From Felis catus (Eukaryota), in NCBI RefSeq assembly GCF_018350175.1, contig NC_058368.1, positions 40,488,001-40,552,000 of the forward strand: DNA of 64,000 bases, given 5' to 3'. Of the stretch, positions 1-64,000 are shown in pieces. The notes beneath the pieces are model-generated. The model saw only the letters and a program-made list of their open reading frames with translations, was not told the origin of the DNA and searched no databases. Every line of letters begins with the position of its first letter. The first letter of the stretch is position 1. A program made the position numbers and the translations under genes.

Positions 1-169
1 ATTTAGTGTTCTGAAAATATATTTTCTTAATCTTGACTTAGTCTGTGCTGTCTTTTTCAATTTTTTTTATGGGAATATGTGGTGTTTAAATTAACTTACA
101 TAAGTTTCCCATTATATAACTTTTTATTATGTATAGTTACTACATTTTTAATTTAATTCCCATTTATAT

Positions 170-199
170 ATTAACAAATATTTTTCTTGAGAGAGAGAG

Positions 200-239
<40 letters not shown>

Positions 240-406
240 CGCGCACGTGCAGGGAAGAGGCAGAGGGACAGGGAAAGAGAATCTCAAGCAAGCTCCATGC
301 TCAGCACTGAGTCCCATGCAGGTCTTGATCTCACAACTGAGAAATCATGACCTGAGCCAAGATTAAGAGTTAGACTCTTAACTGATTGGGCCACCCTAGG
401 TGCTCC
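170..406 (-). mobile_element. Can-SINE (SINEC) with (GA)n(GT)n(GC)n tail
   Basis: Reverse-complement head ...ccaccctaggtgctcc, core tcatgacctgagcc, microsatellite tail. Confidence 0.85.
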
Positions 407-2133
407 TGAATAACTCTTTTTCATAGTATTATTTGACTTGTTGACTTTATGTCATACTTAGCCCAACTCAGTATCGCTGTGAAAATATCCAGGAATAGAT
501 GACGCGGAACCATATACAGAAAATCTTCCATAAAATACAACTGTTAGAATAACGATTCACAAATGAAACTAATTAGAACAGGAAAATTTTCAAAAGTTAG
601 TAGGACATGACAACAGTATGCCAAATGTAAAGAGAGACACTATCTCTTTCAGACAGAAGCTGTGGGGGGAAAATTGGTTGGGGAATGTTCATTGGGCAGA
701 AAAGAGGAGGGGGATAAAGGCAACACACTTTTTAACTGTGCCCTGTCGGTCTGTCAAGTCCCATGGCCTCTATTTTATGTTCTGTGTCTCATTTTCTAAC
801 AACTTGAAGCTCAAAAGAGGGAAAGTCAAGGAGTTTAAATTGAGGAAGAAAGATAGCAGTGCATTTAGGTTTCACTTTGGCTTTTTCACCTCCAATTTGC
901 AATGCTCCAGTGCGGGGAAAGGAGAAGAATTGTACATTTCGCTGGGAGGTTGGAAGCCTGGTCTTAACAGGCTTAACAGTATAGGAGGGTTAGAATGTTA
1001 AACGTATCAAAATTGTCTTATTAAACATAATTTTATATCAGGCTATTTTGTGTATTGTAACCATGCAACTTCACTGAGTAGAAGTAGACATAAATAGACG
1101 GGTTTGCCACTACATGTACTGTGTTGTGAATGGAAGTAGGAAAAACCTTCTGGGAACCAAAATACTTGAATAAAATTGATGGATGTCACATTCAATATTT
1201 AATTGTTTATTAAATAACACATTTGGAGTATTCGTCATGAATGTGTTATAGCCTATAAACTTTAACATGAAGTAACTGATCTTTCTTAATGCTTAGAACG
1301 GGTATAAATGTATTTTTAAAAGGGCAATTAATAGTTATATCTACATTAAAATAAATTATGTCCGTTTTAATGAATGTGTTGGCTGTTGTTGAGGACATAG
1401 CACATTTTACACAAGGAAAATCAAAAGTATGTATAGCAGCACAATCTGAAATTTACAATTTTACAGCTTAATTATGAGCAGATTGACACCACTTGAGAAA
1501 GGGAGAAGAGGTGAAGGTGACCTAATAGCAAAACTAGGCACAATTTTATAGTAAAAACCTTAACTACCCAAGGAACATTAATAATGCAATGCCAATAAAT
1601 ACTGCAATAAATATTGGACTTATTAATTTGAATTCATTACAAATGTTATTTAAGGAACTAAGTTTACACGCTCAGAGAAAAAAAAAACTGAAAAAGAATT
1701 TGGCACAGAGCAGGAGTTTGTACTCTGCTTTGATAGCTGATTGAGTGTATAGCTTAGTTTTGATATTACTTGGGGCACAGTATAGTGTGTCAGAAACTTT
1801 CTCATATTAAATTGTCAATATCAATTCAGAAATTCATTATTTAATCAATTTTTTTCACAGAAGGAACAAAGCACATAATCAAAAATGTGTATGCCCTTGA
1901 TTTGTTTTCAGACAAGCAATAATCCCAACCACTCCTGCAAAATTCTGTTTGCTGATTTTCTATGACAATTTACATTTAAAATTGTAAACATTTAAATAAT
2001 ATGCAATTAAGTGGTTGGGGATTTGTTTAAATAACTGTATAATAGTGGATTTTAAAGGTGAATGCATTATTGTTTTATATCCCTTCAAATGTTTTATTCC
2101 TTCTCTCTGAAACACTCCATGACACTACTTGAA

Positions 2134-2629
2134 TTTTTTAAATGTTTATTTAGTTTTTTTGGGGGGAAGGGGGAGAGAGGGAGAGAGACAGAGACAGAGA
2201 CAGAGAGACAGAGTGTGAGCAATGTGAGGGGCAGAGAAAGAGGGACATACAGAATCTGAAGCAGGCTCCAGGCTCTGAGCTGTCAGCACAGAGCCCGACG
2301 CAGGGCTTGAACTCACAAACCGTGAGATCATGACGTGAGCCACAGTCAGACACTTTTTTAAAATTTTTTACTGTTTATTTATTTTTGAAAGAATGAGAGA
2401 GAGAGAGAGAGAGCGAGAGAGCAGGAGAGGGTCAGAGGGGGGGGGGGGAGATACAGAATCCAAAGCAGTCTCCAGTCTCTGAGCTATCAGCACAGAGCCC
2501 AACGTGGGGTTCAAACTCATGAATGGTGAGATCAGACCTGGGCCAAAGTCAGACGCTTAACCAACTGAACCACCCAGGTGCCCCAAGCCCAAGTCAGACA
2601 CTTAACTGAGTGAGCCACCCAGGTACCCC
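2134..2629 (-). mobile_element. Felid Can-SINE, interrupted by a second SINE
   Basis: SINEC_Fc-type body gcaggctccaggctctgagctgtcagcac; 17-bp TSD tccatgacactacttga (2116-2132) / tctatgccactacttga (2630-2646). Confidence 0.92.
2354..2584 (-). mobile_element. Felid Can-SINE nested inside another SINE
   Basis: Complete SINE from poly-T to ...ccaggtgcccc; flanked by duplicated agcc(ac/ca)agtcagacac. Confidence 0.9.
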
Positions 2630-4125
2630 TCTATGCCACTACTTGAGTACTAGGTCCTTTTTCTCTTTAGGACTGATCTATAATATTGCTTTCTCCAAGG
2701 AACCCTCATGAGCCATTTAGTTTAAAACAATCCAATCCCATTTGTTTAACATGGTTTTACCAAGGCAGTTTGGTAAATCGTATTCTTAGTGCCTAGCATA
2801 TGATCAAAACTCAATAAATATTAATTATTGAAGAAGGAATGATAGCCTGCAAGCATTTTGTAAGTCAGGCAGAAGGGAATTTTCTTGTATAGGAGGGATA
2901 AACACGAAAAAAAGTACTGAGTATTGAGTTGAAAGATGGCTTGACAGGACAGTTGAACAAGAAATGTCCTTCCTTGAGATTACCAGATTCTCAGACTGGT
3001 TGTTCCATATTCAGATACTGGCACAGGCTGATGACAGTTCAAAGTCCCGGGCATTGGAAGACAAGACTAAAGTTGGTCAAATCAAATGGCAGGTTGTTTG
3101 TTGGTACAAAAAGCTAATACTTTATAAAGACACAGAATGGAGTTTGGAAGTCAATATCTGGCCTTATTATAGGAAAATCATGGAGGTATTTGTAAGTCAT
3201 ACTTAAGTCATATTGAAAAGGGTGATTCCTTGCAGTATGCCATTTCTTGGAATGCAAGAGGGTGGGAGGATTTCTTAACCTTTGCTGCTTTCTAAGAGCA
3301 CAGGGCTCATGTAAGGTATAACACTGCCAAAAGGAATAATTGAATACATGTTTGTTATAGTATATTTAATGTGATGTATATGTATATGAATCTACATATC
3401 TAACTATAGATTTATGCTTTAATTTTGATACTGTCATGGCTATTTTTATATATCTACATAAGTAAGAGCTGATCACTGATTCTTAATGTGTCTAATTGTA
3501 CAAGACTAACTGGTGTATTATTGGGTATCATCCTTGGCTTGTGACCACTATATGCCTTAATGTTTATGACAGTTAAAAAGAACCCTACCCATACTTTCAA
3601 ATGCCGCTTAGCAGAGCAGTCCCTATTCCAGTTGAGAGTCATTGGGATGCAGATGTCATCATGTTATAGATTGCAAATACTAATGCTACATTTCAATAAT
3701 ATTCTTTATTTTCACATGCATATTTGTTGTTAAGCTGCATTTGTTAAATATGTAAATAACAGAAAATACTTGTTCGATCCCATGTGATCCATTCCACCAT
3801 AAGCAATTCATCTAAGCCAATAATGGGGCAAAAATTCTGTTGAAAGCTATTGGCATTCTCGGCAAATTTGACCACAGGAAAGTTTTCTGAGAAGTTTTTG
3901 CAAATGGATTCCCAGCTTAGCAAAAAAGACAAATAAACAGATGATAACTTAGCTATACCTGGACATTTTCAAAAGTGAATATAAAGTGTGACCAAACTAG
4001 TTCATGGGAGAAGTCATACTCTAAGGAATTCTAAAGATGAGTGTGAGAACTCTGATAAATCATGCTATAGTTAGCCTTTCTTCTCAACACCTTTTCATAT
4101 AAGTAAACAACTTTGTTTATTGTTT

Positions 4126-5426
4126 TTTTTAATATGAAATTTTTTGTCAAATTGGTTTCCATACAACACCCAGTGCTCATCCCAACACGTGCCCTCCTCA
4201 ACGCCCATCACCCACTTTCCCCTCCCTCTTACCTCCCATCAACCCTCAGTTTGTTCTCAGTTTTTAAGAGTCTGTTATGTTTTGGTTCCCTTCCTCTCTA
4301 ACCTCTTCTTTTGATTTCTTCCCCTCCCCCATGGTCTTCTGTTAAGTTTCTCAGAATCCACATTAGCATAAAAACATGCGGTATCTGTCTTTGTATGACT
4401 TATTTCACTTAGCATAACACTCTCCAGTTCCAACCACGTTGCTACAAAAGGCCATGTTTCATTCTTTCTTATTGCCAAGTAGTATTCCATTGTGTATATA
4501 AACCACAATTTCTTTGTCCACTCATCAGTTGATGGACATTTAGGCTCTTTCCATACTTTGGCTATTGTTGAAAGTGTTGCTATAAACATTGGGGTACAAA
4601 TGCCCCTATGCATCAGCACTCCTGTATCCCTTGGGTAAATTCCTAGCAGTGCTATTGCTCGGTCATAGGGTAGATATAGTTTTAATTTTTTGAGGAACCT
4701 CCACACTGATTTCCAGAGCAGCTGCACCAGTTTGCATTCCCACCAACAGTGCAAGAGGGTTCCCGTTTCTCCACATCCTCTCCAGCATCAATAGTCTACT
4801 GATTTGTTCATTTTAGCCACTCTGACAGGTGTGAGGTGGTATCTCATTGTGGTTTTGATTTGTATTTCCCTGATGAGGAGTGACGTTGAGCATCTTTTCA
4901 TGTGCCTGTTGGCCCTCTGGATGTCTTCTTTAGAGAAGTGTCTATTCATGTCTTCTGCCCATTTCTTCACTGGATTATTTGTTTTTTGGGTGTGGAGCTG
5001 GGTGAGATCTTTATAGATTTTGAATACTAGCCCTTTGTCCGATATGTCATTTGCAAATATCTTTTCCCATTACGTCAGTTGCCTTTTAGTTTTGTTGATT
5101 GTTTCCTTTGCAGTGCAGAAGCTTTTTATCTGGATGAGGTCCCAATAGTTCATTTTTGCTTTTAATTCCCTTGCCTTTGGAGATGTGTCAAATAAGAAAT
5201 TGCTGCGGCTGAGGTCAGAGAGGTTTTTTTTTCCTGCTTTCTCCTCTAGGGTTTTGATGGTTTCCTGTCTCACATTCAGGTCTTTTATCCATTTTGAGTT
5301 TATTTTTGTGAATGCTGTAAGAAAGTGGTCCAGTTTCATTCTTCTGCATGCTGCTTTCCAGTTCTCCCAGCACCGTTTGTTAAAGAGACTGTCTTTTCCA
5401 TTGGATATGCTTTCCTGCTTTGTCAA
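4126..5426 (-). mobile_element. 5'-truncated LINE-1 (felid-type 3' UTR and ORF2 C-terminal remnant)
   Basis: Minus ORFs give L1 ORF2 motifs ([44 protein letters not shown]). TSD caactttgtttattgttt at 4108-4125 and 5424-5441. Confidence 0.97.
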
Positions 5427-6329
5427 CTTTGTTTATTGTTTAAGCAAGTCTGAGTTGGTGATTTTGTTACTAGAAGTCAAAAAGCATCTTATGTGATATA
5501 CTATATTAATACTAAAATCTAATAAAATATAAAGAAGTGATCTTTTCGACTATTTCTAAAAACTTTTAAACATGTTATAAGCTCTCTTTCCCAAATTAAA
5601 GATTAAGTGTCTCTTAAGAATAATGGTACAGATTTATAAATTAAAAAAAAAATGTTGTGTTACTAAAAACATCCCTGATGAGAAAATTAAAGATGTGTCT
5701 ACTTATTGATAAGAGTTGGTGAAAAGTATTTTTTTAGCCATGTTTGTAAGTCAATACTGGGTGCACATTTAATGAACACGGAACTATTATAATGGAAAAT
5801 ATTACATATAAACTATTAGTCATTCCTTTGTGTTACACCTAAGTATGCTCTTATTGTATGCATATGTGGAAAAAGTAACAATAGTGAATTTTTGTTAAGT
5901 ATTTCCCCAAATAAACTTGCATACCAAGAAATATTAAGAGAGCAGAACAAGTAACAGGCTACATTTGATGAGAGAGAGGATGGAGGGTAAATTAAGAATT
6001 ATCAGGTGCTGTAATCACTGCCTGGCTGACAGTAACTGTACCTTGTTTAACTGCCCGATAGAAAAACGAAACCTGAGTATCTGAAAAAGCTGATAAGTAC
6101 TAGAGAATTAGTTACATGGGATAAGAGATACTAAGATGGAAACATCAAATTATTCAATCAAGAAAATGTCCTGAAAACCTAACATGTTCCAGGTAGTGTT
6201 ACGTATCCTGGGGATATAATAATTAAAAAAAAAGTTGAATGTTAGTTATTCTTTTATGGAATATACATTCTGTGAGGATAAAAGTCAATAAACAACATGT
6301 TTTCATAGCAGTTATGTCTACACGCACGT

Positions 6330-7030
6330 AAAGAAATAATGGCAGGATAGGGATGATTGTAAATAGAATGGTTAGGAAGAAAATATTCTCTGAAGGATGA
6401 TGGTTTTGTTGGGTTCTGAAAAACAAGCCTAGACTAGTTAGGGAAATTTCTTCTGGAAGCAGTTGCTGGCCGAAGGAGTCACAATTACAAAGACCCTCAT
6501 GCTTAGACCGAGTTTTCCATGGAAGCCAAAAGCAACAAGGCCAACATGCCTCAGGTACTTTGAGCAGGTAAGTTTGTGGATCTAGATGGGATTGGAGATA
6601 AATATGGGAGTGTGATTGGAAAGAACTTTATAATAAGGAGTTTGGGTAATATTTAAATTGCAAAGGAAAAGCTACTGGAGAGTTATTAATGGTAAAGTGA
6701 CATATTTTTCAAAGACTAAGATTGGTGCTTAACTGGGAATCATCAGAAAGAGGTAATATAAAAAACTAAAGTAACCAGTTAAAAGATTATTGCTAAACAA
6801 TTGCTAAAATCATTTGAACTATAGAACAGAAAGTAAACAAATTCAGGATATCTTTTGGAAAAGATATCAAAGCATTTTTCAAGGAGCTGGACTTGGAGGA
6901 AGGGAAGGGAAGAGAAGAAACAAAAATGACTTTTTTTTTCATTGAATAACTAGATGTATGTAGTTGCCATTTACTAAATGGAAACAAAAAACACCCACAA
7001 AAATCTAGCATACTAGAAGTATCTTCATTA
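6330..7030 (-). mobile_element. Degraded L2 LINE fragment
   Basis: Purine-rich sequence resembling L2 minus strand (gttgccatttactaaatggaaa); boundaries approximate. Confidence 0.5.
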
Positions 7031-7209
7031 CTCTTTACTTTGAGTGTATTCGTTTCTACATGTGTAGTATAGATATATCATTCTCTTTTCAGGAAAGTCT
7101 ATGGTGAAGATCACTGATATATAAAAAACAATCAAACAAACAAACAAAACAAAAAACAAAACAAACTTTCACCACACGATAATCATTATCAACTCACTAA
7201 TCCTAACAT

Positions 7210-7662
7210 GGGGCAAAGTATTTTAATTATCCCTAGCATTCATCTATTCTTTTTTTGTCTTAGTAATAAAATTCCCCAGATCATCGGGGTACATTGTTGC
7301 CTACCTAAGGAAGAGTTTATAATCTTCCCTTACAGTAACATGTGAAACTTCTGGACCATCTCCTTAAAGATCAAGTCACATATCCTGCATTGCATTCCTC
7401 AGCGCCCCCCCCCCCCCCCATCCTGCTGGTTAAGAGATAGCAACACTGATGCCTTGGACTCAGAGGGAGACAAAATTTGGGGGAAATCAGAGCTAATCTG
7501 CCAGCTTGGCTCACTTGATGGACTTAACCTGAAATCCAGAAATCTCTTCTGTAGTTAATGATGTGAAAGAAAAGTAAACTTCTCTGTTACTTAAACCATA
7601 GCATTTTGGAGAATGTGTTAGTCTAGCTTGTACTCTTTTACTAGCTTGTACTAGTAAATACA
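7210..7662 (+). mobile_element. MLT1-like MaLR LTR relic
   Basis: 3' end ttaaaccatagcattttgg...ctagtaaataca resembles MLT1 terminus; boundaries approximate. Confidence 0.5.
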
Positions 7663-7948
7663 TTATTTCCTAGAAAATAATACTTATGAGGAACATTTGT
7701 GAATTTTTAACAAGCATGGAAAGATGGGCATTGGATTGTGTGTGTGTGTGCGTGCTAGCACTTACATGCATGCGCATGCACACCCATGAGTGCAAGTGCT
7801 GAAATAATATGAGCCCAACAACTGAAGAATAGAGTGGGAAAATAATTTTATCTACCTTTACAAATGGGAAAAATTGAGACTGTCTATATTTCTGAGTAAG
7901 AAGGAATGTGAAACAATATTCTTGTTCTGTAAGAATCATTTCTGTATT

Positions 7949-8195
7949 GGGGTACCTGGGGGGCTTAGTTGGTTAAGTGACCAACTCTTGATTTTGGCCC
8001 AGGTCATGATCTCACAGTTCCTGAGTTCGAGCATTGCCTGGAGCTCTGCAAATGGAGCTTGCTTGGAATTCCCCCTCTCTCCCTCTGTCCTCCCTCTCTT
8101 CCCCTCCCCTGCTCATGCGCATATACCTCCCATGAGAGTGGCATACTCCTTCTATCTCTCTCAAAAAAATAAATAAACTTTAAAATTTTTTTAAA
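7949..8195 (+). mobile_element. Can-SINE
   Basis: Head ggggtacctggggggcttagttggttaag, core caggtcatgatctc, (CT) tail, aataaa/poly-A. Confidence 0.9.
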
Positions 8196-9109
8196 AGGAA
8201 TCATTGCTTCTTATAATAAATCTGGGATGGGAGAGTGGTACTCTATATGCAGCGTATTTTCAAATGTTTGAATTAGAAATAAATGTCATAGTAAATCAGT
8301 CAGGAGATAAATGAGAACTTGGGAAAAACTCAATTAGGTATTGGCATTTCTCTGCATGCTACAGAACTCACAAAACTTTTGTCAGAATTCTGTTGCAAAA
8401 TACTTGAGAGGTATTATGCTTTCTAGTGACATAAGTAAAGATAGAAAAGTCTAGAATAACTTCTTCCTGCAAGTCGGATATCCTGCGAATTCTTTAATCC
8501 TATACATAATTCTGAAAATGGGCATTTTACTTGCTTTTTCACAGTAGCCAGATAGGAAGTGTGTTTGAAGAAGCAAATTAAAAAAAATGTATTCAGACTA
8601 TATCCTTTCAAAGAAAATGAATGAAGCAGATGCAATATGTCCTCCTTGTTTCACAAAAATAAATAGCAATCAACAAAACTTCCATCTCATATTCAAAAAG
8701 TTTAATCAAGGTCATAGTTTTCAACTTTATTTCCAACACATTCAATTAGTAAGAAATCAATAATTTATATACACTGCGACAAAGAATAATGTGAAGAGGA
8801 TCAATTTAGTTGAATAATGAGAAATGTAGCTTAAACATTTTATTTGCATTGTACTTCAGTTAAACCTTGATACGATAAATGTGCCCTGGTGCTTTCTTGA
8901 TGTGGAAATAAAAACTGACCACCAAAGATTTGGGCCTTCCTTCCTTAATGTAAAATAATTTCTAAAAGTTGGCTGTGCAGTGTCTGCATTTTCCAAGCCT
9001 TTGTCAGAAATGTAATGATTAATTACACAGTTAAGTTAGTCAAAGGGAACATGCAAAAGGAAGCAAACAATTTGAATGCTACAAATTGGAGAGGATATTG
9101 AAATAGCAA

Positions 9110-9260
9110 TACTTAAATTTAATAATATTTTAATTTATTTTAGTTATCTAATTTAATATTTTAATTTAATACTTAATTTAATTTAAATATAATAATTTAA
9201 TTTAATAGTAATTTTAAATTAAAAATTAATAATTTAATAGTAATATTTTAATATTTAAAT
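9110..9260. repeat. AT-rich low-complexity tract
   Basis: Degenerate ttaa/aattt repeats, almost no G/C. Confidence 0.8.
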
Positions 9261-12200
9261 GAGAAAAGCTCACATGAGCTTTTGCCTAGATTATCTGATT
9301 CATTATATATAGTTTATAAAGAAAGGATGAAAGGAGAGAGATAAGGACAGAGGTAAGGAAAGATGGGAAGAGGTAGAGGGAAAAGAAAACAAATAAAACT
9401 TTCCTTTGTAAATATCACATCATCTGTAATTTCATTCTCGTTACTAGAAATTGGAATGATCAGACTACATTGTTTCAGGTAAGAAACTTAGCTAGTTTGA
9501 GCCAGTAGTTCTGTCTTGAATGTTTAAGTTGTGGCTTTGAAACAAGGCTTACAGAAGAAAAAAACTGGAATTCAGATCTTAATACTTGAACATTCCTTCC
9601 TATTCCACTTCCCTCAAACAACAATAACAACAACAACACCTTTTAAATTTTTCTTCTCAATTTTCAAGTAAATCCTCAAACTACCCTGTATACCCTCACA
9701 CTAGTTCAAGTCCCATCTAGTTCTTTGTTAGTGCCCGGGCAGAGAAAAATCAGTGGCAGATTCTCCTCCTTTATGGGATGGGCAAGAACCTGGAGAACCA
9801 GTTTAGAGCTCTCCAGTGAAGACCAACAATGTAGCAGATTCTAGACAAGATAGGGGCTGAGAGATCTGTGGACTCTCTCAGAGGAATGATCCTTGTAAGT
9901 TCTCATTGAAACTATACTGCTATTGGAGGAAAGACAGTAATTAAATCAATGGAAAAAATTTCCCTGATCTGAGTTGGGAAACTAAGTTGGCAGACTAAGA
10001 ATCCACAGTATTCCAGGTCAGAATAATAATAAGAGATAAAGTTACTCATAAATATCTTGGTAACATCAATTAAGGGAAAACTTACAACCTTCATGTTGAC
10101 AAAACAAAATAAAACTTGGCATCTGCAAGGGAAAATACATACATACACCAAAAAAGCCTACCTGACATTTTATTTTTTATTTTATTTTTAGAACACTGAA
10201 AACAACAACAAAAAATGAAATAAGTAAATAAATAGTCTGTATGTCCATATGTACAGTTGCCAAGAAGTGGGCTCTGTGACTTTTCTGAAATGAGCTACAT
10301 TTTGGAGAACAAACTTGAAAAATTGAAAAACTTGGTATGAATCTCTGGGATAAAAGGAACACTGTCTTCATCATCATCTCCTCTGATGGGTTGTTTTAAT
10401 TACCAGTACAACCTAGCTTTGATCTTTTTTGATTCTGGCCAGTATTTCAGATTTCCCCCCTTCCTTTGTAATCAGTATACAGATAGTAAACCCAATCTAT
10501 TTTCTGTATCAAAATTAAAAAGAATTTGAATAGCCCTCTGTATAAACCGATTATTTCCCTCATTTCTCAGGCAAGTTAATTTAGTATTAGGAGATGTTAG
10601 TTACAGATTTTGTTAACACCACAGGTTTTTTGTATTCCTGTTTTTCTCACTTTGCAATCAATAAGTACAATTAAAAGTTTTCATTTTCTAGTATCTTAGA
10701 TCTTATCCTCTAAAATACAAGTAACTGTACATACATGCCTTTCTTTCTTTTTAGCATATTTACCCAATTTTTTGAAAGTCACGGTTTGAATATAGAATAA
10801 TCTCTTCAGGGTTGATATATTACATTTCTAATTATAACCTTAAACTGTTTAAAGAATCTGATAATTCAGTGAGAAATCAGATACCGACAGGTTTTAAACC
10901 AAAAGTATTTTGAAATATTTTATCTCATCTATGAACACGTTTCTTGCCACTTATCCCACAGTCTGCAGAGTGCTATTTTTCTTACTTTCATTTTTTGACA
11001 GTTTCTGTATTTACCCAATGAAATTCAACAAGGTTGAGATAGAAAAAAAATCTGTTATCATATTAGCTAGCAATTTTTCCAAGCAGAAAAAAAAGAGACA
11101 GAATTGTGCTTTAAACGTCAGCTAGTAATAAAACATGCTTGTTATGCATATATAAGACTCAGGAAACAGAACATCACTTGATAATTTTTAAAAATACATA
11201 TCATTAATAAAAATAAGTGAATTGATTAGATATAAAATAATATTTGAAACATTACGAAGTTACCCATGTGCTCTGTGCAATTTTGTAATATGTGATTGTA
11301 TCATTAATGTTATAACTTATTGCAGGTAAAGCCTTGTGATGGTACCCATATATCTAGGTAACTCTAATTTAAAGTAGAAGAGAAGCAATAAAAGTATTAA
11401 GGGAAAGAAACAATTTTTGAAATAGCAATTTATTTTCTAGATGAAAAATATAAACTTCAGTCCTATATTTGACATGAGTATATATCAAAATCTTTCCTCA
11501 AATGTGGACTGAAGCCTGAGTTGTTACTTGCAGGCCTGATTATAGTGCAAGGAAAACCCAATAAAATTGTGACACTATACTTTTTTATAGCTCTTTTCTC
11601 TAATAAATATTGATTTTGAGATATTGGTAAAGATTACAGCTTGTAGGTAAGAAACTGTTGATCCAAATATGGTACAAGTATTTTTTTTTTTCTGAATGAC
11701 TCTGTTAGCTTTAATTTGGTAAAGTGATTTAACATGATTAATGAAATTAGAAGTAGCATTGATTCCTGGTTATTGTTATACTTGACATATTAAAAATAGT
11801 TTAAAACGGTGGAAAATATATGTGTGTTCAAGGAGAATGAATTTTGGCACATAAAGTTTATTAAAATCGAGGCAATTTTTGTCACAGCATTGTACATGCC
11901 TAGGTCAATTTACAAACACCAAGTCTCTGTTAGTATATTGATGTAATTCATACAAGTGATTTTTCCTACTTTTTTAGCTGCTTTAAACAGAATATATTCA
12001 AAAGGTCAAATAGGACATTAAATCCAAAGGAATCTTCACTGCCAGTGTTACAATGAAATTATTAAAGGGGAAATATTTTAGTAAGTAATGCACCTATTCT
12101 TTTTATAATCTCAAGTGATCTCTACTGAATTGCTATGTTGTGTATAGTTGACAAGTAGGATATGAAAAAAATACTTATTATATTACTATAATTTTTCTAA

Positions 12201-12478
12201 GAAATAAAATGAAAATACTTATTTAAATTTAAATAAGTAATAAAGCACCAATTATTATGCATATGTGTCCCAAAAACAGCAAATAAATTTACTAAGATAA
12301 TTTTTTTAACTTTGCTATGTAGTATTACATTATATTAAATTATATTAAATATATTTAATTACATTAAACAGCACCTGCATGATACAAAGAACATTTTTGC
12401 AAAAATTTGAAGTCCGACTAGCTGTTCCATGTGGGACAAAGGGCATGTGCAAAGACCTTGGACTAAAAATAAGTTTGA

Positions 12479-12702
12479 GGGGTGCCTGGGTGTCTCAGTG
12501 GGTTAAGCGTCCCACTTCAGCTCAGGTCAGGATCTCACGGTTGGTGAGTTCGAGCCCTACACTGGGCTGTATTTTGACAGCTCAGGGCCTGGAGCCTGCT
12601 TCAAATTCTATGTCTCCCTCTCTGCCCCTCCCCAGTCACACACTGTTTCTCTCTTTCTCAAAGTAAACATTAAAACATTTTTTAAAAAATTAAAAAAAAT
12701 AG
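12479..12702 (+). mobile_element. Felid Can-SINE
   Basis: Head ggggtgcctgggtgtctcag; TSD aaataagtttga (12467-12478 / 12703-12714). Confidence 0.92.
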
Positions 12703-13034
12703 AAATAAGTTTGATGTAATCCAGTAGCATCAAGAAAGTCAGTTTGAGTGGAATATTGTGAGCAAGTGGAGGGCATAAATAGAAGACTTGCAGGGAATTC
12801 ATGGGATACAATAAGGAGTTTGACTATTATTATAGAAAGTTGTATCCTTTGGAAAAATTTGAACAATAAATGTCATGAATTCTTTTTTCTTAGAAAAAGT
12901 GATTTATTGTCTTACTACAGATTCTGGGAAGAACAGAATAAATGGGGGGGGTCCCCATGAGCAGTCCAACTTTTTTTACAAAGCGTATGAACTGAGAATT
13001 GTTTTTATATTTTTAAATGTCTACTATAGAAGTG

Positions 13035-13920: not shown

Positions 13921-14161
13921 TATGTACATAATACTTTCAATTTTGTCTCTTGACCAGCAAAGCTTAAAATATTTACTATTTGTCCCTTTACAAATAATTT
14001 TGCCAACTTCTGACTTAAGTGATATGAGGCAGCAGTAAAAAACATGCTGGCTTAAACCAGAGTGGTAGATGTGGAGATTGTGAGAAGCTTTCATATATGT
14101 TATGTATTTCAGTTTAGAGTCTGTAAAATGTTGGAAAAATATATATGATACACAAAGATAA

Positions 14162-14232
14162 ATATATATATATATATATATATATACAGTATATATACAC
14201 TATATATACACTATATATATAGTATATATAAT
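14162..14232. repeat. Interrupted (TA)n microsatellite
   Basis: Direct reading. Confidence 0.9.
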
Positions 14233-47553: not shown

Positions 47554-47732
47554 CTCTTTACTTTGAGTGTATTCGTTTCTACATGTGTAGTATAGATATA
47601 TCATTCTCTTTTCAGGAAAGTCTATGGTGAAGATCACTGATATATAAAAAACAATCAAACAAACAAACAAAACAAAAAACAAAACAAACTTTCACCACAC
47701 GATAATCATTATCAACTCACTAATCCTAACAT

Positions 47733-49630: not shown

Positions 49631-49781
49631 TACTTAAATTTAATAATATTTTAATTTATTTTAGTTATCTAATTTAATATTTTAATTTAATACTTAATTT
49701 AATTTAAATATAATAATTTAATTTAATAGTAATTTTAAATTAAAAATTAATAATTTAATAGTAATATTTTAATATTTAAAT
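49631..49781. repeat. AT-rich low-complexity tract (copy of 9110-9260)
   Basis: Duplicate in copy B. Confidence 0.8.
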
Positions 49782-52700: not shown

Positions 52701-52999
52701 ATATTACTATAATTTTTCTAAGAAATAAAATGAAAATACTTATTTAAATTTAAATAAGTAATAAAGCACCAATTATTATGCATATGTGTCCCAAAAACAG
52801 CAAATAAATTTACTAAGATAATTTTTTTAACTTTGCTATGTAGTATTACATTATATTAAATTATATTAAATATATTTAATTACATTAAACAGCACCTGCA
52901 TGATACAAAGAACATTTTTGCAAAAATTTGAAGTCCGACTAGCTGTTCCATGTGGGACAAAGGGCATGTGCAAAGACCTTGGACTAAAAATAAGTTTGA

Positions 53000-53223
53000 G
53001 GGGTGCCTGGGTGTCTCAGTGGGTTAAGCGTCCCACTTCAGCTCAGGTCAGGATCTCACGGTTGGTGAGTTCGAGCCCTACACTGGGCTGTATTTTGACA
53101 GCTCAGGGCCTGGAGCCTGCTTCAAATTCTATGTCTCCCTCTCTGCCCCTCCCCAGTCACACACTGTTTCTCTCTTTCTCAAAGTAAACATTAAAACATT
53201 TTTTAAAAAATTAAAAAAAATAG
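53000..53223 (+). mobile_element. Can-SINE (copy of 12479-12702)
   Basis: Duplicate in copy B. Confidence 0.92.
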
Positions 53224-53470
53224 AAATAAGTTTGATGTAATCCAGTAGCATCAAGAAAGTCAGTTTGAGTGGAATATTGTGAGCAAGTGGAGGGCATAAA
53301 TAGAAGACTTGCAGGGAATTCATGGGATACAATAAGGAGTTTGACTATTATTATAGAAAGTTGTATCCTTTGGAAAAATTTGAACAATAAATGTCATGAA
53401 TTCTTTTTTCTTAGAAAAAGTGATTTATTGTCTTACTACAGATTCTGGGAAGAACAGAATAAATGGGGGG

Positions 53471-54533
53471 GGTCCCCATGAGCAGTCCAACTTTTTTTAC
53501 AAAGCGTATGAACTGAGAATTGTTTTTATATTTTTAAATGTCTACTATAGAAGTGCAGTCAATCCCCGTTATTCACAGATTCTGTATTTGCAAATTTCTC
53601 CTCATCAAAATGCATTTGTAACCCCAAATCAATAATCAAGGCACTTGAATAGTCATCTGCACATGTGCACATGTACAGAGCAATGGAAGACGTAAGTCAC
53701 CTGATAAACATGTTCTCAGCTGAAGTTGAACAAGGCCATAACCTGCCGTCTTGAATCAGGTCTTCTTACATTGTAAACAAGTGTCTTTTTATAGGTTTAC
53801 TTAGTGCTGCATTTTTCAGATTTTTGTGCATTTTTTTTGGTGATCTCACTATTTAAAATGGTCCCAAGAGTAGTGCTAATGTGTTATTTAGTGTTCCAAA
53901 GTACAAGAAGGCTGTGATGTTTATAGAGAAAACATGTGTTTCAGATAAGATTTTTTCAGGCATGAATTATAGTGCTGTTGGCTGTGAGTTTAATGTTAAT
54001 GAATCAAAAAATGTGTAATCAATAAGGTGTCTTTACACAGAAACACATGAGGTGCCTGTGTGGCTCAGTTGGTTGAGCATCCTACTCTTCATTTCAGCAT
54101 GGATCATGATCTCACAGTTCTTGAGATTGAGCTCCGCATCAGACTATGTGCTGACAGCATGGAGCCTACTCGGGATTCTCTCCACACCTCTCTCTCTCTG
54201 CCCTTTCCCTACTGTGTGCACTTGCTCTCTTCCTCTTTCTCTCTCAAAATAAATAAACATTAAAAAAAAAAACAGAAACACATAAAAAAAAGTAAACATG
54301 GAATGATTGATAAAAATGTGATCAGAGGCTCACAGGCACATAACCTTGTATTTCCCCTAGGAGCATGGTTCAGTATTTGTTAATTTAGTGTTTATGGAGA
54401 CTGGATAGAACATAACCAATTCAGATCACAGGAATTATCTGTATGTACATAATACTTTCAATTTTGTCTCTTGACCAGCAAAGCTTAAAATATTTACTAT
54501 TTGTCCCTTTACAAATAATTTTGCCAACTTCTG
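53471..54533 (+). mobile_element. MER58/MER82/SINE nest (copy of 12950-14012)
   Basis: Duplicate; Tigger element 53556-54441, SINE 54049-54271. Confidence 0.75.
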
Positions 54534-56791
54534 ACTTAAGTGATATGAGGCAGCAGTAAAAAACATGCTGGCTTAAACCAGAGTGGTAGATGTGGAGATT
54601 GTGAGAAGCTTTCATATATGTTATGTATTTCAGTTTAGAGTCTGTAAAATGTTGGAAAAATATATATGATACACAAAGATAAATATATATATATATATAT
54701 ATATATACAGTATATATACACTATATATACACTATATATATAGTATATATAATATATTGATATTAATAACTACTTTTTTGTTCACATTGCCTAATTCATT
54801 AGATATTGCTATGTTAATGATTCTTATAATAATTGTATTTCAGACTAATTCTACCTACATTTTTTATGCTGTGGCTTATTACTGGTTTTGAGGATAGTTT
54901 ATCAGCCATGTAAGTGTTCCCAAATATCATTGAAGAAACATAGTTTGCTGACTGCTTTACAGTTACAATAGTCATTTTGTCACCTGGAAGAGGTTTAAAT
55001 TTGCATACTGTTACTCTGATCACTTTTCTCTGATTTTAAGTTGCTAACTCTCACTATCTTTGGCAAGAAAAAACAAAATCCTTTGAAGGTCATTCAGTCA
55101 CTTCTGCTTCAGAAGGAAGCTGTAGGATGAGTCCTGGCACCAGAAGATGGTGCAATGAATTAGTATGCTAGTAGTGGTGATGATAGGTTGCTAGAATGAT
55201 ATTTGAAAGGAAGTTTTTATGGGACTTTATTATTTGCATTTGAGGTACAAAGAGTAAAATATTACAGATAGCTTTTATTTTTTCTGAAATGAAAACTAAA
55301 TATAAATGAAAATTGCTTTCTCTATGCAAATTTAGAGGAACTTACATAATATACATTTTTATGCACGTTTCTGTCTGATATAAGGTTAATATATTTGCCC
55401 AAAGTTTAAGAGACAGTTTTAAGAAGGAGAAATTTGAAAGATTAGAAATATATATGACCATTGACCTTTGAAAATTTATAGGATCATCCAAAGAGTGGAA
55501 GAGAGAGAACTTTGAGTCAAACACTATAAACCAATATTTAAGGAATTGCGAAGTATATTTCCTACAGAGAAGGTGTCAGAGTACAGTGAAGGAAATGACT
55601 TAGGATGCAGGTAGTAATTGATAAATCTGAAGAATTTACTTGAATTAAAAATACATATTTCTTGTTGACTTTGGATAGAGGATTTTTTTAATTGACAAGT
55701 TTGTAAATAAACTTTAACGTATTCAGAAGTAAGTGAATGCTGAGAAGTGACATATTTGTTGCTTTGAGTGAAAGGACCGGGAAGGTTCAACACACCTGTC
55801 CTTATTGGTGTGTCCAACAGTATGAGACCCACCTGTTACAGGTGGTCAGTTGGCCCTATGCTCTAACAGAGGCACATGGAAGAAAGAATTGCAAATTAAG
55901 TGTCCCAGAGAGCTACAAAACCATACTTTTAACAAACGTATTTAACCCAGTATGGTAAACCTATCTGTCTCTGAAAGAGAAATAAGAGAGCATGATGGGT
56001 GTATGATAACATGGTGACAATGTTTTAACATTTTATGAAGTAAAGCATCTTCCATTTGCCTGTGGCTACACTATTAAATCATCGCACCTTGCTGCCCCAT
56101 TTCCTCACATGTGTCCTGACCTGGTGGGTTAGAAAAATTCACTCATTCATGTGTTTATAGAGTTGTCATTGTGTACTCACTCTGCTGCGGAAACAATGAC
56201 CTGAGTTAAGGAAGCGCAGCTGAAAAGATTTGTGATCTCTACCTTTGTGAATCAGCTGAATCCCTCAAATACTTGCCACATCACTAGTCTGTGCTCCCAG
56301 AATGGAGAATGAAGAGGCTAAACACACCTGCATGCTTCCAATACAAGGCTTCAGCAAGTAATATCAGAAATAATATATGCTAAACAGCATCTTTTCCATA
56401 AAATGTATCCACTAGTTTTAGAATGCTGTTTTTTTCTTGAAATCCACGTGCTCAAGAAAGTATATGAAGTGTGTGATAGCCAAACTAATAGCCTCTCTTT
56501 CCACAATCCAGTTCAGAACATCTTGGCAGCATTTAAAATTCTAAAAGTGCCCTGATTTTTGTTGTTCCTCAACATTCATGCTCATCTTTATTTTTAGCAT
56601 ATGTTGTTATCCTAGTCAACAAGATAATCAAAATGCTTTACGGTATTTAGTAAAAGATGCAGCGTGCGTTTGTGCCACAAGTAGAACAGACTGAGCAGGA
56701 CAAATGCCTCTTGTGTTACGTCCGTGTCACTTTGTTTGCTCATTTTTTATCATGTCAAATAACCTGACATCAATTCAGTCTTTCAAACCGT

Positions 56792-56792
<1 letters not shown>

Positions 56793-56838
<46 letters not shown>
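56793..56838. repeat. (CA)n microsatellite (copy of 16272-16317)
   Basis: Same length as in copy A. Confidence 0.95.
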
Positions 56839-56841
<3 letters not shown>

Positions 56842-58085
56842 TTTGATGAGACAGAGTGAATGGATCTGAGGGAAAGAGGTTGAGCTCACAATAGGCAAGA
56901 AAGAGGACACACAGTGTGGAAGCAAGAGCATTCAGTTGATACTGAATGACAAACTTTTTATGTTATTGTTGATTAATGAGTAAACTTTCAAAAGCTTTTT
57001 TTGTTCCTTGTAATATGTCTAGTTTTATACTGAAATTTAGATCTATTATCCAGTAATTCCAATAATTACTTTCTAAGCATTTAGCAATTCATCACAATGT
57101 TCTATGTGTTCCCTCCTAAATTCACTCATTATGAGTCTGATTTTGCTTAATTTATCCTCTAACATTTCATTAAAATAAATTAAATTACTATGTTCTCATT
57201 AAAATGAAATGAGAAATGTTATCATGAGATTTATAAAAGAACATTTTCTAATTTCTGAAACAGTTTTATTTATTAATATTTCCATGCCATTTTCCTTAAT
57301 GCTATTATTTTTACTAAAAGTATGTATCTTTTTTCATTACTTCATAATATCTTATCATATATAGTTATAAAAATGCACTTACCGCTCGTTTCACTTTCTT
57401 TTAATGTTTTTCATCAGACATTCAACTCTAAAAATTCAAAATAGGCTCTTTGATCAACAGAAAACAATAATGCAATCTATCATGTTTATTAAAGAAACTC
57501 TCTCTTGGTTTAATTTGATCATATCTTTAGCATTAGATTCACATCCTAATTCATTCATTGCACATGTTCTAAAAACTAGAGGAAAAGTGCATCTCCTATT
57601 AGGATTTTAAGGAGTTGTAATCACTTCCAAAGTATAAAAAGTATTATGTGTGTATAGGTATGAATAGGTAACAAAGCCTCAGCAACGTAAAAGCGTTATA
57701 TTTAAAAACAGGAAGAGATTGAAAGCAAAAAAAATTCTATTTTACTAAAATACAGTCATTTCAGACTGACCACTATTACCTTGTTTCATCTTTTATGTAA
57801 AAAAGAATTGGGGATGGATTTGGGGAATAGTAAGAGAAGATACACCAATGAAAATTGAATCAGAAATAAATGTAAACTTTTTTAGATAAGGAAGAGTAAT
57901 AACATACATGAGACTTTTATTCCATACTTTTTACTTGGTTTAAGGAAAATTTACTTAAGATAATTTTAGAGACAGTACTTCTTTGACTAATTTTAATGTC
58001 CAGTGTATTCAAATAATTTTTGCATAATATTTTATGAAAGACATCTTAAAGTAATCTGTGCAACCTCTCTCCTTAATAATTTTAC

Positions 58086-58130
58086 TTTTTTATTTTTTAA
58101 CTTATTTTTTATTTTTTAAAGTTTATTTGT

Positions 58131-58170
<40 letters not shown>

Positions 58171-58329
58171 TGAGTGGGATAGAGGAGAGAGAGGAAGAGA
58201 GAATCCCAAGCAGGCTCTGCACTGTCAGCACAGAGCCCAACATGGGGCTCGAACTCACAAACCATGAGATCATGACCTGAGCTGAAATTAAGAGTCAGAG
58301 GCTTAACCAACTGAGCCATCCAGATGCCC
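58086..58329 (-). mobile_element. Can-SINE (copy of 17565-17810)
   Basis: Duplicate; one GA unit shorter. Confidence 0.92.
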
Positions 58330-58818
58330 TAGTGACTTTACTTTTAAAGTTTGATTTGTATTATAATGGTTGATGGTGTTCTTTGAATTCCATCAACCAT
58401 ACTCTTTAATATTAGTATATTTTGATAAAAAGTCACTAGATGCATTTAGATATCTGTTAATTTTATCACAGACTACACTGTTCGACAAACTTCATATTTT
58501 GCTGACTGCTTTTCCACTGCAGTATTCATTTGTCATTGGGAATATGTATAATTTTACACGGTGCTATACTGATTTCATTTTTTCTAACTCATCTGAGCAA
58601 GTTTAATAGCCCTCATACTATCTATTTCAGGGGAGTAAAATGCTGTTTTAAGATAAGTCACTTGTGGTTAACTGCTTTTAAATAAGTGATTAGTCAATTC
58701 TAGATTCAAATTCAAATGTTCTAACGGTAAACTTTCTATTTGGGATATTCTGACTCCTTCCCTTCTTCTAATTTTACTTATGTCGTAGGCAGTCTAAACT
58801 TGAGAATGTCTACTTGAT

Positions 58819-59771
58819 ACCATTGTATTGAAAAAAATACTTGTCTGGCTTTTTACTGACTTTACTGACTTCTGATCTAAGTGTCATCCATAATGCCTAT
58901 TCTCAGGTTCCTATTTTCTTTATTCTACTTTATTGAAAGCCACCCCAACCCAATTTTCTTATGTACCTTACTTTAAAAATTCTTGTGTATCAACAGATGG
59001 CTACAAATGTAAAATATACCAACTCACATTAATGCTAAATCTTTTTTTTTTTTAAGTTTTAATTTATTTTTGGCAGAGAGAGCATGAGTTGGGGAGGGAC
59101 AGAGAGAGGGAGACACAGAATCTGAAGCAGGCTCCAGGTTCTGAGCTGTCAGCACAGAGCCTGATGAGGGGCTCAGACTCACGGACTGCGAGATCATGAC
59201 CTGAGCTGAAGTCAGACGCTCAACCAACTGAACCACCCAGGTGCCCCAATGCTAAATCTTTTTAATGACTTACCATTGCATCAAAAATAAAAGCCCTTAC
59301 TATGGTCTGCAAAGCATTTTAATGAAATGTCCCTGCTTTTGCCAATATTCTGCCTTTCTCCCTCTGATTTAATCTTCTATTTTTAGCTATACTGGTTTTC
59401 TTTAAAATCCTTAAACAGATCTCAATCTTTGAGTCTCTAGACATTATTTCTTTTTCAAATGCCTTTTCACCTACACTTCAACAATACTCCCCGTGTAGAC
59501 CTCAGAGCAAATATCAGTTTTTCAGGCCAGTGTCCCTGGCCTTATCTGTAATAAATATGTATTTTCCCATTATTTTCTGCATCCTCCCATTTCTTATTAT
59601 GTTAAAATAATTTATTACAGCCACTACTTATTTTACTCATGGTCCATGTATTTGCCATCTTCAACATCTTTTCTAGAATGTATGCTCAGTGAGAAAGTGT
59701 TTATTATTGCATTTCCATCAGCTCTGACATGTCTAGCATTCATCAGAAAGCCAGTATTTGTTGAATGAAAG
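58819..59771 (+). mobile_element. L2 fragment (copy of 18300-19252)
   Basis: Duplicate in copy B. Confidence 0.55.
59047..59247 (-). mobile_element. Can-SINE (copy of 18528-18728)
   Basis: Duplicate in copy B. Confidence 0.95.
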
Positions 59772-60318
59772 AAAAATAATTTATATTCCATGAACAAAGT
59801 AAAAGAAAGTTTCAGCAGCTGAAAATAAGAAGAGAGAGGGGTTGGGGACTGCTGGAAAAGTTGTAAGTCGGAAAAATGTTTAAGGATGGCATGACATGTT
59901 TTTATACATTCAAATACTGTAGTTCTTATTTAACAAGAAATGGGAGGATGTAGAGAATAAAGATTTTAGAATACTGAGGTTTGAGAGTGATATGTTCACA
60001 ATAGACCTTTAAGAATCTTAGCACTGTGATTATTTTCAGTGAACAATTTCTGGGTGTTTTGTTTTTGTTTTTAGTAGATGTAGTGTAGAATAAAAGATCA
60101 TATGAAATAATCATGCATCAATATTAAGAAAGTTAAGTAATAGATATATTTTTTTCACTCTATCAAAGTGTTCTCAGTACTTTTTATGAACCATGTCTTC
60201 TGCTAGGTCTGGAGAAACTAAAACAAAAGAAACTAAGGTATCCCATATAGAAATTTCAAGTATATTAGGGGAAACTTTGTGCAATCAACATTTTATAGTT
60301 GTCTATATCCATATCTAA

Positions 60319-60831
60319 AAACAATATTTTAATGTAGAAAGTTGGTGGCCACATTTGGTGGCCAACCCAATAGTCATTTCTACTTGTTTCCATAGGAACA
60401 GAACTCGAGATTGGTTCATGCTTGGTGCTCCAAGACAATGTCATTTCTCCCATCTCTAGTGCACAGCTTACTCTTCTTTGATAGAAGTAAATTCAATGGT
60501 ATATGTATGATGCACACCTATGGTAAAATGACACAGGAAGATGATGCTGTGGGACATCCAGAAAAGGTTTTAAGTATATAATACAGATAAAGAAAAAGAT
60601 CCCTTTTTTCATGTCTTTGGGACCAAACAAACTTAAAGCTGTGGCAGCCATTTTAAATACAGAGAGAGAAATTTGAGGACAAAAGTCAAGATTCTGAGAA
60701 CAGAAGAGTGGACTGATGCAACGTTGCCTAATTTCAAAAATTTGTAATAAATAAATATACTTTGTGCTCATTATCTAAGTGCATGTATTTAAGTGTTGGT
60801 TATTTTCAGACAAAGTATCTTGACTGATAAG
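60319..60831 (+). mobile_element. MLT1-like relic (copy of 19800-20312)
   Basis: Duplicate in copy B. Confidence 0.5.
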
Positions 60832-61277
60832 TATAGTGTGCAAGCATTCTTTCTTCTCTTCTCCCAAAATGTTAATAGCATTAGGTATTGCTTCCAATTC
60901 TACAAGTTCTATCAATAACTCTGGGATTTAGAGACATGAAAGCAGTAACTCCTTTTTCAGAGACATTTTCAATGCTTAGTTTAAGCACCAGCTGACCAAC
61001 ATAATGGGTAAATTATACCCCATGGAACTTTTGATTCAAAATAATTATAGTTTTCTAGGTCAAACGAGAGGTAATCATTACCTCTCACTTCCCCCAAATT
61101 TAATTGGAAATATGAACATTTAATGCTGTTAATTATAATGACTAGGTTAAAATTCTCTAGTTTGTATTAATATCTTTTAGCCTAAAATTTGACCTTTTAT
61201 TAATTTCTTCTCTCATGAGCTAATAAGTACATTGAATTCACACAGTTTGCAAAATGCTTGAATGTTTAAAGCCATGG

Positions 61278-61307
61278 TTTTTTTAAGTTTATTTTTTTTA
61301 TTTTGAC

Positions 61308-61340
<33 letters not shown>

Positions 61341-61519
61341 CAGAGAGACAGAGAGGAGCAGGGGAGGGGCAAAGAGAGAGGGAGAGAGAATCCCAAGCAG
61401 GCTCCACTGACAGCACAGAGCTCAGCTGACATGGGGCTTGATCCCACAAATTGCGAGATCATGACTTGAGCTGAAACCAAGAGTCAGACACTTAACTGAC
61501 TGAGCCACCCAGGTGCCCC
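61278..61519 (-). mobile_element. Can-SINE (copy of 20759-21000)
   Basis: Duplicate in copy B. Confidence 0.92.
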
Positions 61520-61718
61520 TAAAGGCATGTTTTTTTTTAAAAAATACATTAATATGAATGTACATTTTTACATTGTAAATTCAAAGTGATAACATGCAGC
61601 TCATCATAAATCTGAGTAATATGGCAAGTAGACTTACATGTGATCAAGAATGTCTTCACCTTGATGTCACAAAAGTGCTTTCATCTAAAAAGTCTTTGTT
61701 CCACAAATCCCATTTCTC

Positions 61719-62489
61719 TTTCTTTGTTCTTTGCCCTTGTGAATAACATCTCCATTTGCCCAGTCATCAGCTCCAAAAAAGGAAAAGTGAATCCAAATAT
61801 GATTTACTCTGTCAGTCACAAACCCCCTAATGAATCAGTCAAGTTCAACACGTCTTACCTTCTTTCTTACATCCTTCCTCCCTTTCTCTTCCCATGAAAG
61901 CAGTTACTTCATGTATATCTTACTTCTCATGTGTATTATTGCAATAGCCTCCCAAGTTATCTCCCTATTTCCAGTGTATTTTTTCTCAAGCCTATCTCCT
62001 AAATAATGCTGTGTGATTCTTCTAAAATGTTAATTTGACCATGACACTCTTTTGCTTAAAATACACTAATAACTTTGGGAATAAATTTTGAATACCTTAT
62101 CTTAGCAATTAATGGTTTTCAGAGTCTGGTCTTTAGCTACATTTTGCCCTGTTCTTCTACACTGCACTTCAGTGATAGGCAACTGCTGAACTCCCAACCT
62201 TCATTAGGATATTTTATATTATCAAGAATTTGTCATTCTGTTTTCTCTGCTCTGAATGATTTTCTATCCTATGTAAATAGCTGTCTCCTTCTGATACTTC
62301 ATGACTGAGTTCCAAAAAACTGTTTCTGTGAACTTTTCCCTGACCTCTCAATAGGGTAGCATATTTATTGTATGTTACCATAACAACTTGTGTGCATAAT
62401 TCTTTACATTATTCAACTTTTATGCCTGCTGTCCAGCACAGTACTCAGAATATAGAAAGCACAAAATAAATGCATGTTGAATACATAAC
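61719..62489 (+). mobile_element. L2 fragment (copy of 21200-21970)
   Basis: Duplicate in copy B. Confidence 0.6.
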
Positions 62490-64000
62490 AATAGGGATGA
62501 ACTGTTTACTTCCTTGATTTATTCTTATCTTTTGTGTGTGTCATAGATGCTTCTATTTTAAAAAGCAGTTTACAGATCCTGCTTTCATACACCTGTCATT
62601 CAGATTTATTCATATGGGAATATATTTGCCAATCTGTGTTGAAGGTAAATACAGAATAAAACAAATGACGCTGCAAGTATGAAAATACACATTTTGCAAT
62701 TTTGACTACTTTCAGACATACTTCATAGCTTTCCTTTTCTGTTATAAAAAATATTTCTATCTTTGTACAATGTCAAAATGTTTATTGTTTCTAAAAGCAT
62801 AGTACATCTTCCTAATAAGCAAATTATTCTTTACTGTGCACATATTTTAAATCGGTTTCAAGTGTGTGCGAAAGAAATAGTTATGCTAAAACACTACTTT
62901 TAAGAATATATTCATATTTCATATTTAGTATCAAAGGCCAATAAGGAAGAAGCTTATTATGTGACTTATGACCACATGTCTCCAGTCTTAATAAGACAAA
63001 TGATGTACACATGAGGGAAATATTTTTTTCTTTTACTGTCAATTACTATCCTTGATCTAAAAATATAAGTTATGAAGAGAAAGCTTAAATTTTGATGGCT
63101 TAGATTTGTCCTCTAAATATTAACATGACAACTTATTACACCAAAATTAATTTCAAATAAATGCTTAAAACTATTGTGGAGAAAACATAATCTTACTAAG
63201 TCTATGAGGACTAATCCTTAACATATTTTCATCAATTTAGTATATATCCTATTCTCAATGTTACTATAGATCACACAATTAATACATCCTTACCCTGAAG
63301 AGCTTTATATTTGCATTTTCTTATTAATAATCAGGGTCTATTCTTTTCATCATATTTCTTAGTGATAAGCATACATTCTCAAATTTGTATATGGTGGAAA
63401 ATAAGGTTGATTAGAATCTATAATCGTTTTCTATATGAAAATCAAATTTCATATTTATAAAATAAATATCATGAACAAAAGTACTTAAGTCATTATGCAG
63501 TTTCAACATGACAAGTGAAAATTGATAGAATTCAGGAGCGAAATATAATTTATACATGACATGAAAAAAATAGAAAGGTCAAAGTAGAATAGCAATTTGC
63601 TTTCAACACAGTAAAGAAAAAAATGTAATATTGTAGAAGAAAATTATCGTTTTATAGTCATGAAAAAAATGACCTTTGTGACATTTCAAAGATTTGACAC
63701 TAATCTTCCTGAATCATTCTTCATTAGTCAAAAGCATACAAATGTGCTTCATCTGGGCTTTAGTAACATTCTTTAAAAATGCACTTGAGCATATGGACAC
63801 CAAAAAGTTTAAAGTAGTAGTCAATAGAATTGTGAAGAATGAAAAATAGGAGTTAGCATAGAATTAAAAAAAAATTAAAATATTGTGTGTGGGTTTTTGG
63901 TTTGTGTGTTTCTTGTAAATATGAGCTTTCACCATAGCTACTCTCCATTTTCATGTAAACAAACAATACAGAATTAAAGAAGGAAATAATTTGGCTGGAC

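What the first reader, a model, noticed from the sequence alone, without database searches (positions are those of the whole stretch)
1..64000. At least 23.5 kb duplicated in direct orientation at a ~40.5 kb offset, virtually identical
Seen: 1-23481 recurs at 40523-64000, including all SINEs, L1s and TSDs, and the match runs off both window edges. Inference: the simplest model is a head-to-tail tandem duplication with a ~40.52 kb unit. That would be a very young CNV that also duplicates any enhancer or exon in the unit. The alternative is a false duplication in the assembly.
Basis: partly seen in the sequence, partly recalled or inferred. Interest (0 to 1): 0.75.

Follow-up and report, generated by a model that had tools for sequence, protein, structure and literature searches.

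The report
Very recent 40-kb cat tandem duplication
A 40-kb stretch of gene-free DNA in a cat genome appears twice in a row with almost no differences, which is either an ordinary, very young copy-number variant or an assembly error, and in both cases a known kind of thing.

Summary
Observation confirmed: 1-23,481 recurs at 40,523-64,000 with 0 substitutions and 3 length differences (G12/13, C15/13, (GA)17/16), and the match runs off both edges. The window has no N.

The sequence is cat-like. Scan notes and a published gene order place it at roughly 40-41.6 Mb of chromosome A1, in gene-poor DNA about 2 Mb from the PCDH9 start. No exon or RNA family was found.

Other cats differ from this region by up to about 0.2%. 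Two ordinary alleles should therefore show tens of SNPs, so both copies come from one recent template.

Best reading (0.58): a real head-to-tail duplication with a unit of about 40.52 kb, younger than about 7,400 generations, probably neutral, germline or cell-culture in origin. The absence of a gap favours it. An assembly false duplication remains possible (0.35), because all three differences sit in error-prone runs.

The junction must lie in the window (23,482-40,522 if two copies) but was not located; no reads were aligned. The scan's notes show no earlier report of this on other DNA. Ordinary; low interest.

The parts
1..23481 (+). First copy, as far as the window shows both copies; it continues off the left edge
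40523..64000 (+). Second copy, same orientation; it continues off the right edge
23482..40522 (.). Part of the period seen once in the window; it must hold the new junction if there are two copies. No N, junction not located
   Evidence: geometry; sequence
2437..2448 (+). Difference 1: G12 here, G13 at 42,959
7405..7419 (+). Difference 2: C15 here, C13 at 47,928
17613..17646 (+). Difference 3: (GA)17 here, (GA)16 at 58,134
25942..26308 (+). Junction candidate A: an exact 91-bp direct repeat (25,942-26,032 and 26,218-26,308) around a 185-bp filler with only 4 G/C bases; may equally be an independent small repair scar
   Evidence: the only hit of 60 bases or more at 93% identity or more that starts in the middle interval
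27970..29590 (-). Junction candidate B: 5'-truncated L1 (ORF2 from about residue 826) with no target-site duplication scoring above 8, followed by a short scrambled AT-rich patch
30360..30921 (.). Junction candidate C (weak): two older SINEs without a clear target-site duplication (scores 5 and 7)
4108..5441 (-). 5'-truncated L1 with a perfect 18-bp target-site duplication, carried in both copies

Best explanation
A real, very recent head-to-tail duplication of a roughly 40.52-kb unit of non-coding DNA in the gene-poor interval between PCDH20 and PCDH9 on cat chromosome A1. Shown: the two copies, their near-identity, the lack of a gap and of coding content. Inferred: one non-recurrent event made it, by a template switch at a stalled fork or by break repair (microhomology-mediated replication or end joining), joining the end of the unit to its own start and leaving one new junction in 23,482-40,522. 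The three differences are consensus errors or slippage in long runs. It is most likely a neutral rare or private variant (germline about 0.48, clone in cultured cells about 0.10).
For: No N anywhere in the window, although a junction must lie in it. Ko et al. [quoted passage not shown] A gap-free direct join within a contig normally needs reads that cross the junction (inference). 0 substitutions in 23,478 bases, against about 12-47 expected at 0.05-0.2% heterozygosity; the 20 best public holders share only 92-94% of the 31-mers of 30,600-40,500, up to about 0.2-0.27% difference. This argues against the commonest artefact, two alleles laid side by side. The copies are not a literal string copy, since 3 sites differ. 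Li and Durbin (PMC10462168, passages) note that duplications from the last thousands of years stay identical over tens of kb. Cats carry CNVs of this size (PMC6288940 supplements; PMC7581003 section 11).
Against: No junction was found and no read, depth or second assembly was examined. All 3 differences fall in homopolymer or dinucleotide runs, where assembly errors concentrate (PMC13456413, passages), so the copies may be the same DNA assembled twice. An exact 40-kb repeat is not resolved by accurate long reads alone, and false duplications arise at contig ends. Ko et al. also describe false pairs joined without a gap by wrong gap filling. No gain near this position appears among the A1 rows I saw in the cat CNV catalogue, so it is not shown to exist in any other cat.
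Confidence: 0.58

Rival explanations
1. Homotype false duplication: one locus was assembled twice from two read sets or two overlapping contig ends, and the join was closed without N by gap filling or patching.
For: 0 substitutions, and 3 of 3 differences in error-prone runs, about Q40; both G/C runs of 12 or more differ while 10 of 10 A/T runs agree. This class exists in long-read assemblies, up to about 0.1% of sequence.
Against: No gap. Homotype duplications were the minor class in all three long-read assemblies of that study. Long G/C runs also slip fast in vivo (recalled), so the error pattern does not discriminate.
Confidence: 0.25
2. Heterotype false duplication inside a run of homozygosity: both parental alleles were placed in tandem, and they differ only at fast-mutating runs because they are identical by descent.
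For: Breed cats carry multi-megabase homozygous runs on A1 (PMC10969784 Table 2). Length differences limited to short repeats fit recent common descent.
Against: Heterotype duplications form where alleles are more divergent, and mostly with a gap. The chance of 0 SNPs is 0.009 at 0.02% heterozygosity and 8e-6 at 0.05%, so it needs true homozygosity. It is impossible if the assembly is single-haplotype (not known).
Confidence: 0.1
3. An older or multi-copy array (three or more units, or two copies around a unique spacer) kept identical by gene conversion or unequal crossing-over.
For: The match runs off both edges, so copy number and true ends are not seen. Scan notes describe conversion tracts of 2.4-5 kb between L1 copies in this genome (unchecked).
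Against: Identity is uniform over all 23.5 kb with no patchwork. Nothing in the unit suggests a satellite or a gene array.
Confidence: 0.05

Closest known systems
Non-recurrent tandem duplication CNVs of mammals (FoSTeS/MMBIR or polymerase-theta end joining; junction features in PMC6258378, passages)
   Same: Tens of kb, direct orientation, near-zero divergence, no long flanking repeat seen; candidate scars with templated or AT-rich filler lie in the interval where the junction must be.
   Different: The junction is not located, so microhomology or an insertion at it is not shown; existence in DNA is not shown.
Cat CNV regions (Genova et al. 2018, PMC6288940; Buckley et al. 2020, PMC7581003)
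   Same: Same size class. A 46-kb singleton loss with no annotated gene is listed at A1:42.69-42.74 Mb of an older assembly.
   Different: That event is a loss of another size, in other coordinates. No A1 gain between 38 and 43 Mb in the rows seen (part 1 of 4 of supplement 1; all of supplement 2). Buckley's call table could not be read.
False duplications in assemblies, homotype and heterotype (Ko et al. 2022, PMC9516828)
   Same: Adjacent copies on one scaffold; differences that look like sequence error.
   Different: No assembly gap between the copies and no allelic SNPs; depth and read-pair criteria not tested.

Membership tests
True recent tandem duplication CNV | Two copies in direct orientation at very high identity | tested here: met
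   99.979% over 23,482 columns
True recent tandem duplication CNV | Copies abut head to tail with one new junction absent from the ancestral allele | tested here: inconclusive
   Three candidates from sequence alone; none confirmed; no single-copy allele was available for comparison
True recent tandem duplication CNV | Junction-crossing reads and raised depth in the source animal | not tested
True recent tandem duplication CNV | Present in other individuals or inherited | not tested
   One search shows the region in other cats but cannot see a junction, which removes at most 0.3% of the words
False duplication (Ko et al. 2022) | Assembly gap between the copies | tested here: not met
   0 N in 64,000 bases; the paper allows a read-depth gap instead
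False duplication (Ko et al. 2022) | Haploid-level depth and discordant read pairs | not tested
   Needs the source animal's reads
Heterotype false duplication | Allelic differences between the copies at or above the local heterozygosity | tested here: not met
   0 substitutions against about 12-47 expected at 0.05-0.2%; does not exclude a homozygous run
Homotype false duplication | Differences are sequence errors, with no true single-copy k-mers | tested here: inconclusive
   3 of 3 differences lie in runs prone to both error and slippage
SINE- or L1-mediated unequal crossing-over | A hybrid repeat without matching target-site duplication at the junction | tested here: inconclusive
   6 of 9 SINE regions in 23,482-40,522 score 8 or more, as do 6 of 8 in 1-23,481 and 43 of 300 random pairs; the middle L1 has none above 8. 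Missing duplications are not special to the middle interval

The most novel reading that the evidence does not exclude
The duplication is real, segregates in cats, and doubles a long-range enhancer acting on PCDH9 or PCDH20, with an effect on expression or phenotype; its junction is the 91-bp repeat with AT filler at 25,942-26,308, a fresh templated-insertion scar. Breed selection signals were reported at A1 40.0-41.2 Mb (PMC10969784 Table 3), the same broad interval, but nothing here links them to this duplication.
Probability: 0.04. Interest if true: 0.45.

Novelty: new member of a known kind. Interest (0 to 1): 0.15.

Why it matters
If real, it is one more rare or private cat CNV in gene-poor DNA: useful as a marker and as a clean junction to read a repair mechanism from, and of wider interest only if it doubles a PCDH9 or PCDH20 enhancer. 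If false, it is a 40-kb assembly error that halves depth and removes mapping quality at this locus and should be fixed. Neither outcome changes a general question.

Tried and rejected
Coding content: 26 stop-to-stop frames of 90 aa or more in 1-41,000 and 67 ORFs of 45 aa or more in 23,482-40,522. I gave 43 of these to Pfam (24 of the first 26, 19 of the second 67): 2 weak hits, both under the curated cut-off. Short exons could be missed. Two frames are L1 ORF2. Rfam: 0 hits.

Locating the junction from target-site duplications: inconclusive. Exact look-up of 10 ORFs from the middle interval, four of them across candidate junctions: 0 of 10 in the protein collection, which says nothing either way.

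Scan notes: nothing near, no look-alike windows, no match by words.

Literature: searches for a cat false duplication or an A1 duplication gave 0 papers; the PCDH9/A1 search gave 1 paper and the felid segmental duplication search 1 paper, and the passages I read in them do not describe this duplication. The library is limited to open papers, and Buckley's structural variant table, which could list it, was too large to read.

Rejected: a literal copy made by the scan's windowing (3 sites differ); a satellite array (longest arrays are microsatellites and AT patches); an inverted or palindromic structure; two ordinary outbred alleles.

Full report
Observation. Self-comparison shows 1-23,481 matching 40,523-64,000 at 99.979% over 23,482 columns, with 0 mismatches and 3 gap sites, from the first base of the window to the last. 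The offset is 40,519-40,523. The differences are G12/G13, C15/C13 and (GA)17/(GA)16. Ten of 10 A/T runs of 9 or more bases and 3 of 4 long perfect dinucleotide arrays, including (AC)23, are equal in both copies; 2 of 3 G/C runs of 8 or more differ. The window is 34% G+C with no N.

Content. The unit is AT-rich DNA with 17 SINE regions found with the window's own copies as queries (the carnivore SINE label is recalled, not from a call) and two truncated L1s whose frames match L1 ORF2. Rfam gave 0 hits in 1-41,000 and 0 of 43 ORFs reached a Pfam cut-off. Short exons and enhancers cannot be excluded.

Location. The window's genome was not available, so this rests on unchecked scan notes. They place RNF17 40.03 Mb, STOML3 23.06 Mb, ATP7B 20.91 Mb and SUGT1 10.88 Mb before the window, and a promoter 42 kb upstream of PCDH9 2.12 Mb and LMO7 9.63 Mb after it. 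The order STOML3, ATP7B, SUGT1 agrees with cat A1 in PMC10969784 Table 2 (section read), which puts STOML3 before 18.54 Mb. The window therefore starts at about 40.0-41.6 Mb of A1 if the coordinates are comparable. With PCDH9 about 0.9-1 Mb long and pointing towards the window (length recalled from human), the window lies about 1.1-1.2 Mb past its 3' end, in the gene-poor interval towards PCDH20 (recalled). Twenty of 24 listed public runs, under three organism codes and 11 studies, hold 92-94% of the sampled words of 30,600-40,500; the other 4 are not indexed. So the region itself is ordinary cat-type DNA.

Age and template. A 92-94% word share implies up to 0.20-0.27% difference from other cats, an upper estimate because contigs lose words for other reasons. 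At 0.05-0.2% heterozygosity two alleles should differ at about 12-47 sites in 23.5 kb; the chance of none is 8e-6 or less, and 0.009 at 0.02%. The copies therefore come from one recent template. With 0.86e-8 mutations per base per generation at a mean parental age of 3.8 years (PMC9290555, abstract and passages), the 95% upper bound is about 7,400 generations, about 28,000 years. Zero generations, meaning an artefact or a culture clone, fits equally.

The junction. The window spans more than one period, so a new junction must lie inside it: in 23,482-40,522 with two copies, possibly in the repeated part with three or more. Three candidates appear. First, an exact 91-bp repeat around a 185-bp filler with 4 G/C bases (25,942-26,308), which resembles the templated and non-templated insertions described at rearrangement junctions (PMC6258378, passages); a scan note describes a similar small scar elsewhere in this genome, so it may be unrelated. 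Second, the L1 ending at 29,543, with no target-site duplication above score 8, against a perfect 18-bp one for the other L1. Third, two older SINEs at 30,360-30,921 with scores 5 and 7; but 2 of 8 SINE regions in the repeated part also score below 8. Most junctions carry only a few bases of microhomology (median 2 in that paper) and would be invisible without the single-copy allele. No reads or contigs were aligned, so the junction stays open.

Real or false. [quoted passage not shown] For false: all three differences lie in homopolymer or dinucleotide runs, where errors concentrate (PMC13456413, passages), at about Q40; exact repeats of this length need ultra-long reads, and contig ends breed false duplications; wrong gap filling can hide the gap; cats have long homozygous runs on A1. 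I put real at 0.58, homotype false at 0.25, heterotype false in a homozygous run at 0.10 and an older or multi-copy array at 0.05. These are judgements, not computed values.

Mechanism if real (inferred). One non-recurrent template switch or break-repair event joined the unit's end to its start; SINE- or L1-mediated unequal crossing-over is the lesser option and was not excluded. With no exon in the unit the likely effect is none.

Comparison and novelty. Cat catalogues list CNVs of this size: 154 regions, 19 of them gains (PMC6288940, passages), and duplications averaging 7.5 kb (PMC7581003, section 11). In the rows I saw (part 1 of 4 of supplement 1; all of supplement 2) there is no A1 gain at 38-43 Mb; the nearest event is a 46-kb loss at 42.69 Mb in older coordinates. 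Buckley's call table could not be read and may list this variant. Searches found no report of it; PMC13047762 (passages) had nothing relevant. It is a new member of a known kind at best. Interest 0.15.

Noticed in passing
window 25,942-26,308: Exact 91-bp direct repeat around a 185-bp filler of almost pure A/T with short pieces echoing the repeat's start; a young repair-type scar, whether or not it is the large junction.
   Followed up: partly
window 9,111-9,260 (and its copy near 49,630-49,780): A second AT-only island without a long flanking repeat; identical in both copies.
   Followed up: partly
window 27,970-29,590: 5'-truncated L1 without a clear target-site duplication, followed by a short imperfect 17-base tandem patch (29,553-29,585).
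   Followed up: partly
window 2,134-2,630: Nested SINEs: one antisense SINE inserted near the 5' end of another, leaving a 45-base imperfect repeat at 2,542-2,629.
   Followed up: no
window 34,560-35,035: Two SINEs in tandem that by eye share one target-site duplication.
   Followed up: no
window about 24,500-25,340: LTR-like stretch by eye (recalled resemblance, not tested) with a SINE inserted at 24,980-25,215.
   Followed up: no
window about 16,100-16,420, 33,200-33,500 and 34,040-34,230: Non-repetitive stretches that look like possible conserved or regulatory elements by eye; the first has the second-highest CpG ratio bin of the unit (0.26 in 16,001-18,000). Untested.
   Followed up: no
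cat A1 40.0-41.2 Mb (PMC10969784 Table 3): Four selection-signal markers in a cat breed fall in the same broad interval as this window's inferred position; no link shown.
   Followed up: no
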